Assembly (NCBI GenBank): GCA_964016885.1
Contig: OZ024754.1
Coordinates: 34,658,001-34,722,000, forward strand
Direction: 5' to 3'
DNA from: Eledone cirrhosa
Taxonomy: Eukaryota
DNA length: 64,000 nucleotides
Part shown: positions 28,601 to 31,600 of the stretch, one piece after another
How positions within the stretch are numbered: the first letter of the stretch is position 1
Layout of the letters: every line of letters begins with the position of its first letter
Program-made: the position numbers and the translations under genes
The notes under the pieces: generated by a model
Told to the model about the DNA's origin: nothing
The model's database searches: none
The model's input: the letters and a program-made list of their open reading frames with translations, nothing else

Positions 28601-31600
28601 TACAAAATATTGAGAAACTAATACAGGGTTTGACGCGGCAGGCTTCCCTTCCCAGCTCGAGCCGGTGGGGCTGGATCTAGGGGACGGCAAAAGGCCTGAT
28701 GGCATAACCATCTTCTCGTTCCGCGGTGGCAAACCTCTCGTCTGGGATGCCACTTGCACCGACACTTTCTACAGTCTGTGACAGACCCAGATTCTGCTGC
28801 GCGTCGGGTTGAGGAGGCCAAACTCCTCAAATACCAGTCGCTCTCCGACAGGTTTGCGGTCGTACCCCTGGCAGTGGAGACTTCTGGTATCCTTGGCCCC
28901 AGGGCTACCTCCTTACTCACCACCATAGGCGCTGAGCTGGCCAGCCGCAGGTGTGAGCCCTGCGAGTTGGAGTGGCTTTTCCAGCGCCTCTCGCTTGACA
29001 TCCTCCGGGGAAACACCTCCATTCTGTCCACCGGGGCTGTGGGTGGGCCCCATCGCGTATCAGGCTGATAAATAAAGTACCAATCCGACATTGGCGTCGA
29101 TTCTCCACTCACCTTTTCTCTCTATCCACACACACACACACACACACACACACACACACACACACCTTTCCTCCTTGATATACTGCTTCATTACTACATA
29201 TAACGTATTCATCTAAAGGGAGAAAGACACTGCGTGTGAAAGACAGATTGATATCACCATAGTTACTAACTACACAGCAAGTGACATTTTTCGGCTGATA
29301 CTCCCAGTTTGTTGCTGGCTCTTATGTTTGTTAATCGAGACACTGTTCTTTACCCGAATCATTTTATGTTTGGAAAATTTGTTCGTGAACCAAGGTTCCA
29401 CTGAATATTAGTTTAAAGGACTTTCTGAATTATACTCCAATCATTTTAGATGAACTAAACAACCATTCCTTTCCTATTTGTTATTGCCAATACTGATTTG
29501 GATGCATTGCTACCAATGTTGATGATTGTTGTTGTTACTAACGTTGCCTTGTTCTCTTCCTTTCTGTGTAACAGACTATAATGAAGGACAAGTGGATGAA
29601 TATAGGTTTCGAGGATGATGAACTTAAGCCTTATGTAGAACCACCACCTGACATAAATGATTCACTACGAATAGGTAATTGTATATATATAAACCAAAAA
29701 AAAAAACAAAAAACAAAAAAAAAACAGACGATCCTATGAACTTGTTCAGATTTTGTTTCCATACCTTGGGAGTGGAAGCAACAGGCTGAACAGGCATTAT
29801 TATTATTATTATCATCATCACTACCACCACCACCACCACTACCACCACAACTACCACCATTATATTTACAATTACTTTTATTTGTTGCCCTGCTGATCTA
29901 GTGGCTGTGCTAAGGGACATTCTATGAAGGTCTGCTATTGCTGCAGTGTAATGTCTCTTCTCTCAGGACACCAGGATTCTTACAGAGAGGCACCTGTCAA
30001 AAATCCTTTGCATGCTGTTTTTTTTTTTTTTTTTTTTTTTTTTTTATATCATGCAAATTTTTTTTTGTTTCAGAGCTTTGTCGTATTTGTTGTTGTCATC
30101 TTCTAAGTGGGCTTTGTGGTTGTCTCTTCCACCCGTTTGTTTGCTTGATTATCTTATTTTTTATGTGCTGAAAATCAGTTTGTCTTTTGGTCTACAGACC
30201 ATTATGCGAGACCGCTGGATCAATGTTGGGTATGAAGATAAAGAATTAAAGCCTTACAAAGAGCCATGTAGAGACAAGCTTGATCCTAAGCGCATAGGTA
30301 AACCAACGTTATGCAACGTTTATCAAATATTTGTAACAGGGAAGATCTTGTTGATTTCTCCAGCATGTTTTGCTGCCTGTCAATATAGTTCAGTTGTGTA
30401 TACAAAGAGGGTGTACAGTTCAAGGGGAGAAACTGTTTTCTCTATAACTGGGGCTATTCCTAATTCTTTGTTAGTTTCATGTAGTTGCAATAAACTTTTA
30501 ACAATTAGTCATATATTGTAATTTTAACCCTTTAGCATTTACATTACTCTATATATACTATATTTTCACAGTAAAGGCTTTGCCTCACATAATTATCTCA
30601 CATAATATCAAATCTATGAGATTTTGATATTATTTATTTTGAGAACAATACCTTAACATAAGTACAAGTGGCCGGTTACAACCGGTTTGAATAGTAAAAG
30701 GTGAGAGAATTCTGGTCAAATACGGCCAGTTTAAATGCTAAAGGGTTAAATATAAAGTCAGCTATATTTTGAAAAACCAAATTTATATTGGAAAATTGAC
30801 AAAACTTCCATAAATTATTGCAATAAAAATGGCTGACAAGATTTCTGCAATAGAGTCGGTGTTATAATTTTGTCAATGCTGTTTTACATTTCCTTGGCAT
30901 GTCTGCATAGTTAAGAAGCTTATTTCACAATCATGCATTTCTGCATTTGGTCCTATTGTGCAACCTCTTTGGAAAATGTCTTCTACTATAACTTCAAGTC
31001 AACCTAAATCTTATTGGAGGAAATTGGGTAGATGGAAACTGTGCTGATCTCTGTCTTATAGACTATTATTGAGTGGTGGTAGAATCAATCCACCAGCCTG
31101 TTTAATACCACCACCATTTGGCCCTTAAATAACTTTTGTGGAGTTTACTTTATTGCATTCAGGTTTCCAGTGTGAGGATAGCCCTTGTTTTCTTCCACTT
31201 GTCATAGAAGCCCTGCATTATGATTGAAAATCAACAAGACTTGAAAATTCTATTGATTTTGAGTAGATGTCATTGAAAGAAAACTCTGATTAGTCATAGT
31301 TTTACCAAATTATGTTGCTGCGATATTCACAATTAAGATTTCTCTGTAGAATAATTGAAACAGAGGTTTGACTCAAATATTTTTCCTTTTGGAGTATTAG
31401 AGTTTTTAAATTATTAGATATATTCTTTTAATTATATTTCTAAATTGGGTTTTGCTCTTAATATGAATCTTTATGTAAACTTTTGATTATTATTTACTTT
31501 TGAAATTTAAATATAACTGTAGAGAATTTGATATACACAATTTGTTGTACCTAGGTGTGCATGTACATAATTTAATTGTGCTGTGCTGTTTGTATATATA

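What the first reader, a model, noticed from the sequence alone, without database searches (positions are those of the whole stretch)
29575..30297. Tandem duplicated, mutually exclusive exon pair encoding the MARK/Par-1 kinase C-terminal helix and CD linker
Seen: two homologous 100-nt exons 523 nt apart, both phase 0 to 1, both open, both with good GT-AG sites. They share 20/33 amino acids and differ at many synonymous positions, which suggests an old duplication with both copies under selection. Including both gives [16 protein letters not shown] inside B; skipping both frameshifts the UBA exon. Exactly one must therefore be used. Established: this segment of MARKs holds the end of the kinase domain, the CD motif and the linker to the UBA domain; as far as I recall it is a single exon in vertebrate MARK1-4. 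Inference: one gene makes two kinase variants by exon switching. I cannot tell whether this is already annotated.
Basis: partly seen in the sequence, partly recalled or inferred. Interest (0 to 1): 0.9.

Follow-up and report, generated by a model that had tools for sequence, protein, structure and literature searches.

The report
Ancient switchable exon in MARK kinase
An octopus gene for the cell-polarity kinase MARK/Par-1 has two copies of one short exon and can use only one per intact protein; the same pair occurs in snails, clams, chitons, ribbon worms, a lamp shell and likely annelids, and the second copy strips negative charge from a surface patch, which likely changes how the kinase docks partners or is switched on.

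Summary
Exons A (29575-29674) and B (30198-30297) are 100-nt AG/GT exons, phase 0 to 1, 20/33 residues identical; using both or neither gives stops. They lie in the single MARK gene found in this octopod genome. RNA-like runs of relatives join the upstream exon to A (4 of 4) and to B (2 of 4). Both isoforms are already in automated NCBI models of Octopus, so the locus is not unannotated. I found no paper describing the event.

A/B pairs occur in all four mollusc classes sampled, two nemerteans, a brachiopod and annelid-like loci. Arthropod, starfish and vertebrate sets show one form. B lacks the third acid of the ExxE docking motif in 20 of 21 rows and is less acidic than A in 19 of 19 pairs. 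One ancient duplication fits best. Two further cassettes (21 and 51 nt) give eight linker variants. It is a new member of a known kind; its function is inferred, not tested.

The parts
22121..22240 (+). Exon U, upstream exon encoding the end of the kinase C-lobe; 120 nt, phase 0 to 0
   Evidence: AG/GT and open; one match in the genome; joined to A and to B in contigs
29575..29674 (+). Exon A, 100 nt, acidic form (CD motif EDDE), MARK2-equivalent residues 297-329
   Evidence: U>A joint in 4 of 4 runs; used in NCBI isoforms such as CAI9730107.1 and XP_036363501.1
29675..30197 (+). 523-nt GT-AG intron between A and B; its 3' part is strongly conserved in relatives and holds one TGCATG hexamer 189 nt before B
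   Evidence: contigs of 4 of 4 runs cover part of it, e.g. X1 record 7, 30057-30367, with 5 other letters and 1 gap; hexamer count not above background
30198..30297 (+). Exon B, 100 nt, charge-shifted form (CD motif EDKE, net charge +2 against -4 for A)
   Evidence: U>B joint in 2 of 4 runs, and 0 other letters in the X3 and X10 exon contigs; used in CAI9730112.1 and XP_036363498.1
45903..45923 (+).
   Evidence: located; AG/GT and frame; present in 10 of 20 octopod isoform models
47475..47525 (+).
   Evidence: 16/17 match to the Sepia pharaonis insert; present in 12 of 20 octopod models; its letters appear in the loose end behind 30297 in run X3
57689..57801 (+). Exon D, UBA domain, 113 nt, phase 1 to 0
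   Evidence: one match in the genome

Best explanation
Exons A and B are a tandem-duplicated pair in the single MARK/Par-1 gene found in this octopod genome, only one of which can be used in an intact protein, and the pair likely arose once near the base of the lophotrochozoans and likely lets cells switch the kinase's docking patch and kinase-to-UBA linker between an acidic and a near-neutral form. Shown: the exon structure, the frame rule, spliced use of both copies in relatives, presence of both forms across molluscs, nemerteans and a brachiopod, and the charge difference. Inferred (about 0.75): a single origin. Inferred (about 0.7): exclusivity comes from regulated exon choice plus nonsense-mediated decay of double-inclusion and double-skip transcripts, not from steric blocking. 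Inferred (about 0.5): B's loss of the third ExxE acid (MARK2 position 311) and gain of Lys/Arg at 317 and 321 change partner docking or how the linker positions the UBA domain and helix alphaC, and so change activation level or localisation rather than the phosphorylation-site motif. The tissue or stage that uses each form is unknown.
For: Frame logic. Joints U>A in 4 of 4 runs and U>B in 2 of 4; no A>B joint among the 15 rows shown. A and B isoforms with identical flanks in Octopus vulgaris and O. sinensis; Aplysia, Pomacea, Gigantopelta, Lineus, Mytilus, Ostrea and scallops; Haliotis; Liolophura, Tubulanus and Lingula. Genomic order is A then B in the window, in 4 of 80 metagenome loci (L009, L043, L054, L055) and in fused Pinctada and Mytilus models. 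Position 15 is acidic in 21 of 21 A rows and 15 of 15 single-copy rows but in 1 of 21 B rows. Position 21 is K/R in 18 of 21 B and 2 of 21 A. Mean net charge is -4.0 (A), -0.5 (B), -3.6 (single). All 21 A and all 21 B fall on opposite sides of one weak branch (72/83), and 13 cephalopod, gastropod and bivalve B rows form a starred clade, 95/92. AU test under LG+G4: one B clade p=0.63; a duplication per phylum p=0.039; per class p=6e-5. dN/dS: A 0.05 and 0.15, B 0.11 and 0.08. Steric blocking is unlikely: 523-nt intron and only 17 AG-free nt before B. Literature: the CD motif is ExxE with a proposed but unidentified cofactor (PMC2604893). Replacing linker 308-330 abolished MARK2 activity, while moving linker plus UBA onto SIK2 did not transfer KXGS specificity (PMC6890249). 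The equivalent linker clamps alphaC in MPK38/MELK (PMC3940201).
Against: No functional or tissue data. The runs are only guessed to be RNA, are contigs, come from relatives, and their tissues are coded; 2 joint rows were not shown, and decay would hide double inclusion. A>D and B>D joints lay outside the stretch laid. The tree rests on 33 columns. Under the C20 model an octopus-only duplication was not rejected (p=0.059), and the per-phylum tree passed the SH test (p=0.068). Convergence on one function could group B exons. For 14 of 19 pairs the A/B label came from likeness, not gene order; window and O. vulgaris, and Pecten and Argopecten, are close kin; the Biomphalaria pair is two species. 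Paralvinella B keeps the acid at position 15. 37 of 80 metagenome loci, from unnamed hosts, carry one exon type without a partner, and in L028, L040 and L045 a single copy lies between U and D. Absence outside lophotrochozoans rests on annotated isoform sets and a few loci, not on genome scans.
Confidence: 0.7

Rival explanations
1. The pair is real but arose several times independently (for example once each in molluscs, nemerteans, brachiopods and annelids), with B-type copies converging on a less acidic patch.
For: Convergent tandem exon duplication is documented (PMC9741552 abstract; ACOX1 passage in PMC8373072). B is not one clade in the free C20 tree, where six single-copy rows fall among B rows. 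The per-phylum tree is not excluded by SH (p=0.068). The residue at position 15 is mostly K/R in cephalopods, gastropods and bivalves and N/S elsewhere, and annelid-like B exons are 97 nt.
Against: AU p=0.039 per phylum and 6e-5 per class; one B clade is not rejected (p=0.34). The order is A then B wherever both are seen on DNA. Several sites are shared across phyla: Arg at 6 in 21 of 21 B, and Lys at 21 in 16 of 21 B.
Confidence: 0.15
2. The two proteins behave nearly alike; the pair is kept because the splice switch, with its decay-bound by-products and the two downstream cassettes, tunes MARK amount rather than MARK properties.
For: All structurally central residues are kept in both copies (20 invariant positions). 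The PMC9741552 abstract says most changes in such pairs are conservative. The intron before B is well conserved and appears unspliced in contigs of all 4 runs.
Against: Copy-specific residues are held across phyla, with a consistent charge shift in 19 of 19 pairs, and dN/dS is low within each copy. Interchangeable exons would not be expected to keep such differences.
Confidence: 0.12
3. One copy is a dead pseudo-exon, or the duplication is an assembly artefact.
For: In runs X1 and X8 exon B appears only in unspliced contigs.
Against: U>B joints in X3 and X10. The B peptide is identical in octopods and Sepia. The copies are 61% identical at DNA level, with no flank similarity beyond simple repeats. 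The pair is present in other phyla.
Confidence: 0.01

Closest known systems
Tandem duplicated exon substitution events / clusters of mutually exclusive exons (PMC8373072, PMC9741552, PMC3228551)
   Same: Adjacent homologous internal exons of equal length, frame and splice type; isoforms identical except for one homologous region; ancient and under purifying selection.
   Different: MARK1-4 do not occur in the human catalogue's supplement, and par-1 does not occur in the supplement holding the 154-gene Drosophila list. Here the differences include a conserved charge shift, not only conservative changes.
FYN FynB/FynT exon pair (PMC9741552 section 12)
   Same: A duplicated, mutually exclusive exon in a kinase gene that covers a regulatory inter-domain linker and yields isoforms with different binding and tissue patterns. 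This is the closest working analogue.
   Different: FYN is a Src-family tyrosine kinase; its exon covers the SH2-kinase linker and the start of the kinase domain, and the event is chordate. Here the exon covers the kinase end, CD motif and kinase-UBA linker of an AMPK-family kinase, and the tissue pattern and effect are untested.
MAPK8 (JNK1), MAPK14 (p38alpha) and PRKCB duplicated exons (PMC8373072 supplement)
   Same: Kinase genes with homologous alternative exons; the PRKCB event is of bilaterian age and encodes an arm that wraps the kinase domain.
   Different: Different kinase families and regions: inside the C-lobe for the MAPKs, terminal exons for PRKCB. No shared origin with this event.
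Vertebrate MARK1-4 and their MARK-specific linker (PMC2604893, PMC6890249; PDB 6c9d and 2hak matched)
   Same: Same domain order and the same segment, which aligns without gaps to MARK1 and MARK2; exon A keeps the canonical acidic ExxE.
   Different: Vertebrates vary this segment across four genes (MARK4 has EGEE); this genome shows one gene with two exons. No vertebrate row held has the B-type loss of the acid at position 15.
Drosophila par-1 'mutually exclusive exons' (one mention in PMC3303723)
   Same: Same gene family and same class of term.
   Different: The exons are not specified in the passage read, and the supplement could not be read. par-1 is absent from the Drosophila duplicated-exon list, and insect isoform sets show one form of this segment, so it is most likely a different event.

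Membership tests
Mutually exclusive homologous exon cluster (criteria of PMC3228551) | Similar length | tested here: met
   100 nt and 100 nt; 100 and 97 nt in annelid-like loci
Mutually exclusive homologous exon cluster (criteria of PMC3228551) | Compatible splice sites and same reading frame | tested here: met
   Both AG/GT, phase 0 to 1
Mutually exclusive homologous exon cluster (criteria of PMC3228551) | Sequence homology | tested here: met
   20/33 identical, tblastn E 8e-12 within the window
Mutually exclusive homologous exon cluster (criteria of PMC3228551) | Each exon is spliced into transcripts | tested here: met
   U>A in 4 of 4 and U>B in 2 of 4 RNA-like runs of relatives; not tested in this genome's own RNA
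Mutually exclusive homologous exon cluster (criteria of PMC3228551) | The two exons are never together, and never both skipped, in mature transcripts | tested here: inconclusive
   Both cases give stops. No A>B joint among 15 shown rows, 2 rows hidden, contigs only. 7 of 596 proteins held carry both, all bivalve gene models joined through intron-like codons. U>D skipping lay outside the stretch laid.
Tandem duplicated exon substitution events (PMC9741552) | Typical trait: tissue- or stage-specific use | not testable with these tools
   Sample tissues are coded and contig depth cannot give levels
MARK/Par-1 kinases | AMPK-family kinase domain closest to MARK1-4 | tested here: met
   Window exons match O. 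vulgaris MARK P0007; its isoform P0010 matches solved MARK1-4 at E 1e-177 or better against 1e-120 to 1e-122 for SIK3
MARK/Par-1 kinases | CD motif ExxE with x = E or D after the kinase domain | tested here: met
   Met by exon A (EDDE). Exon B keeps both outer Glu but has Lys at the third place, a variant of the motif within the same gene
MARK/Par-1 kinases | UBA domain after the linker and C-terminal KA1 domain | tested here: met
   UBA exon D aligns to MARK1 and MARK2 UBA. KA1 (PF02149) is on the orthologous O. vulgaris proteins; its exons lie beyond the window and were not located in this genome.

The most novel reading that the evidence does not exclude
Lophotrochozoans invented, once and before their phyla split, a second MARK/Par-1 isoform whose docking patch is charge-switched, and have kept both for over 500 million years as a tissue- or stage-specific switch in polarity or neuronal signalling. 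Coleoid cephalopods added two more cassettes at the same linker, giving eight variants from one gene. The A/B pair would then be a natural tool to identify the still unknown ligand of the MARK CD motif.
Probability: 0.35. Interest if true: 0.7.

Novelty: new member of a known kind. Interest (0 to 1): 0.5.

Why it matters
MARK/Par-1 kinases control cell polarity and microtubule-associated proteins such as tau. The acidic CD motif after the kinase domain has been proposed as a cofactor-docking site with no partner named (PMC2604893), and the linker it starts is required for activity (PMC6890249). A pair of natural variants of exactly this segment, kept apart across several animal phyla, gives a ready comparison for finding what the motif binds or how the linker tunes activity. 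It would also add a lophotrochozoan-wide event to catalogues of ancient duplicated exons that were built from human and fly gene sets. The limits: the class of event is well known, the isoforms already sit in automated annotations, and no function is shown.

Tried and rejected
Third copy or second MARK gene: none in the window or in three genome searches (these give lower bounds).

Steric exclusion through a distant branch point: rejected (523-nt intron, 17 AG-free nt before B). Major/minor spliceosome incompatibility: rejected, all sites are GT-AG.

Docking/selector RNA pairing: the best complements inside the A-B intron are only A-runs against T-runs; rejected as low complexity. Alignment of the introns before B from the window, L009, L043 and L055 shows no conserved block across lineages. 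TGCATG is present in 5 of 5 A-B introns but at scattered distances and near background (expected 0.2-0.95 per intron); not evidence.

B as an extended terminal exon, as in O. bimaculoides model XP_014770441.1: the read-through frames diverge between species after about 17 codons; treated as an annotation artefact.

AlphaFold2 model of the B isoform: mean pLDDT 45, under 50 across residues 158-317; not used, no fold search run.

Run search: no holder on record as RNA was listed. Word shares of 0.22-0.30 exceed the 0.19 that exons alone give, so they are not evidence of splicing by themselves.

Search of 50% representatives: unnamed hits that added little. The first constrained-tree script timed out; its finished trees were scored.

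Ten paper searches listed no paper on this event. PMC1964837 was not held. Three look-ups in earlier scan notes were empty.

Full report
1. Observation. The window holds a MARK/Par-1 gene on the + strand; its exons match O. vulgaris MARK (P0007) from about 4590 to 61465. Exon A (29575-29674) and exon B (30198-30297) are each 100 nt, AG/GT-bounded, phase 0 to 1, and 523 nt apart. They share 20/33 residues and 61/100 bases, with synonymous sites saturated. With upstream exon U (22121-22240) and UBA exon D (57689-57801), either exon alone gives an open frame, while both or neither give stops (one search had U and D off by one base and is superseded for frames). Of 25 open AG-100nt-GT blocks on this strand, only A and B resemble each other. 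Genome searches gave two matches for exon A, both in the window, and one each for U and D, so one MARK gene is found. The organism is an octopod by likeness: B is identical to Octopus and Sepia peptides and U matches the Octopus rather than the Sepia variant.

2. Are both used? No run on record as RNA was listed. I laid 4 of the 18 runs guessed to be RNA, from four coded organisms and four studies, on 22000-30500. The GT..AG joint U>A appears in 4 of 4 runs. U>B appears in 2 of 4 (X3, X10; 25-26 nt on the short side). In X1 and X8, B is seen only with its flanking intron. No A>B joint is among the 15 rows shown; 2 rows were hidden. These are contigs from relatives (about 3 other letters per U and A exon, 0 in B), so they show presence, not level or tissue.

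3. Annotation and further cassettes. Of 20 octopod isoform models held, 13 use A and 7 use B, none both, for example CAI9730107.1 (A) and CAI9730112.1 (B). These models also revealed two in-frame cassettes between B and D, which I located at 45903-45923 and 47475-47525. All eight combinations are open in the window and all eight occur among the models.

4. Age and spread. Isoform sets with two forms and identical flanks: gastropods Aplysia, Pomacea and Gigantopelta; bivalves Mytilus, Ostrea and scallops; the nemertean Lineus; Haliotis; the chiton Liolophura, the nemertean Tubulanus and the brachiopod Lingula. Of 80 metagenome loci, 4 hold both exons in tandem, A then B, with AG/GT ends: L009, L043, L054 (B cut by the contig end) and L055. 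In L043 and L055 B is 97 nt. So is the exon in L078, whose peptide equals that of the annelid Paralvinella (P0358); on that basis I read them as annelid-like. Platynereis Par1 has an A-type segment. Sets with one form per species: ants and a bee (15 proteins), Artemia (8) and Asterias (15); termites (15), Rhodnius (15), Halyomorpha (15), Penaeus (12), Petrolisthes (3), frog MARK1 (15) and shark MARK2 (15). At most 15 members per cluster were listed, so this is absence from samples of annotation, not from genomes. Against a universal pair, 37 of the 80 loci carry a single exon type from unnamed hosts, and in L028, L040 and L045 only one copy lies between U and D; if those hosts are lophotrochozoans, one copy was lost. 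That the phyla concerned split in or before the Cambrian is recalled, not from a call.

5. One origin or several? In a 58-row, 33-column tree all 21 A rows and all 21 B rows lie on opposite sides of a weak branch (72/83). Thirteen cephalopod, gastropod and bivalve B rows form a starred clade, and six single-copy rows fall among the B rows. Under that model a B clade is not rejected (p=0.34), but neither is an octopus-only duplication (p=0.059). On 55 rows under LG+G4 (O. vulgaris A and B and L045 left out), the B-clade tree scored best, per-phylum duplication had AU p=0.039 (SH 0.068) and per-class p=6e-5. The free tree scored 2 units below the constrained one, so the searches were not exhaustive. 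One origin is favoured, not proven. Both copies are constrained. Between L043 and L055, dN/dS is 0.038/0.82 for A and 0.113/1.03 for B. Between the window and L009 it is 0.30/2.0 and 0.19/2.5 (few sites, dS near saturation).

6. What differs. The exon maps to MARK2 residues 297-329, fixed by D175 and T208 (anchors from PMC2604893). That covers the end of the kinase domain, the ExxE CD motif and the MARK-specific linker. Position 15 (MARK2 311) is acidic in 21 of 21 A rows and 15 of 15 single-copy rows but in only 1 of 21 B rows (otherwise K, R, N or S). Position 21 (317) is K/R in 18 of 21 B and 2 of 21 A. Position 25 (321) is K/R in 15 of 21 B and 1 of 21 A. Conversely, position 31 (327) is basic in 14 of 15 single-copy rows and 14 of 21 B but in 0 of 21 A, so both copies have specialised. 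B is less acidic than A in 19 of 19 pairs, by 2 to 6 charges. Labels rest on gene order for 5 pairs and on likeness for 14, and several pairs are close kin.

7. Mechanism. Exclusivity: steric blocking, spliceosome incompatibility and RNA pairing found no support. I infer regulated choice backed by nonsense-mediated decay, which the frame rule makes available. The well-conserved intron before B in relatives hints that B is the regulated exon. Function: the CD motif is proposed to dock cofactors, and 14-3-3 can bind a fragment with the catalytic domain and this linker (PMC2604893). Replacing the linker abolished MARK2 activity, but linker plus UBA did not transfer KXGS specificity to SIK2 (PMC6890249). 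In MPK38/MELK the linker clamps alphaC, and in MARK1 Glu318 touches Asn108 (PMC3940201). By my mapping those numbers fit MARK2 numbering and place Glu318 at exon position 22, next to B's Lys. Residue 108 is Asp in 25 of the 31 rows checked, Asn in Platynereis and 4 vertebrates, and 1 row was mis-mapped, so a B-specific salt bridge is possible but speculative. I therefore commit to this: A and B likely differ in partner docking or activation set-point, not in site motif (about 0.5).

8. Known and new. This is a tandem duplicated exon substitution, a well-described class; FynB/FynT is the closest working analogue. MARK1-4 are absent from the human catalogue's supplement and par-1 from the supplement with the Drosophila list. 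Ten searches of the open library listed no paper on the event; subscription journals are mostly not covered. What I saw of each paper: passages of PMC3303723 (its supplement was unreadable, and could name the fly exons), PMC2604893, PMC5019223, PMC8797185, PMC6737064, PMC3940201 and PMC3228551; passages and supplement searches of PMC8373072; passages and section 20 of PMC6890249; abstract, passages, sections 12 and 14, a supplement search and supplement part 1 of 2 of PMC9741552.

9. Verdict. Real, spliced, ancient and already present in automated annotation, but not found in print as an event. New member of a known kind; interest 0.5. It would rise to about 0.7 if tissue-specific use and a biochemical difference are shown.

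Noticed in passing
window 45903-45923 and 47475-47525: Two in-frame cassettes (21 and 51 nt) insert residues right before the UBA domain. The 51-nt one is shared with Sepia and Argonauta; neither was seen in the non-cephalopod isoform sets printed. The microexon has a 197-nt AG-free zone and 87% pyrimidines upstream, as regulated microexons tend to (PMC8797185).
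   Followed up: partly
proteins P0220-P0232, P0539-P0551, P0413, P0438, P0467, P0254: Insects and scallops also vary the same linker/UBA junction by short insertions in place of or before the first UBA-exon residue, in annotated isoforms, so this junction looks like a recurrent splicing hot spot.
   Followed up: no
window 29662-29664 (exon A, residue 30): This genome has Ser where the other coleoid A forms held have Pro; Ser also occurs there in chiton, nemertean and brachiopod A forms.
   Followed up: partly
P0032-P0035, P0194, P0196, P0199: Seven Pinctada and Mytilus gene models join A and B through 13-18 intron-like codons; likely mis-annotations, useful here for exon order.
   Followed up: yes
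L028, L040, L045 and 34 similar loci: A single exon with an acidic A-like front half and a B-like back half, from hosts not named by the tool; it could be loss of one copy, a hybrid exon or another MARK paralogue.
   Followed up: partly
window 29887-30367: The intron flanks of exon B are about as conserved in relatives as the coding exons and appear in contigs of all 4 runs, suggesting regulatory sequence or slow splicing.
   Followed up: partly
window 30523-30541 and 30732-30750: A perfect 19-nt inverted repeat about 190 nt apart downstream of B, possibly a small mobile element.
   Followed up: no
window 28234-28310: A short repeat covered by many unrelated contigs at high depth in three runs, likely part of an abundant interspersed element.
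   Followed up: no
P0296, P0297 against P0053, P0329: Babylonia areolata has B-type isoforms with different UBA sequences on two different contigs, suggesting two MARK genes.
   Followed up: no
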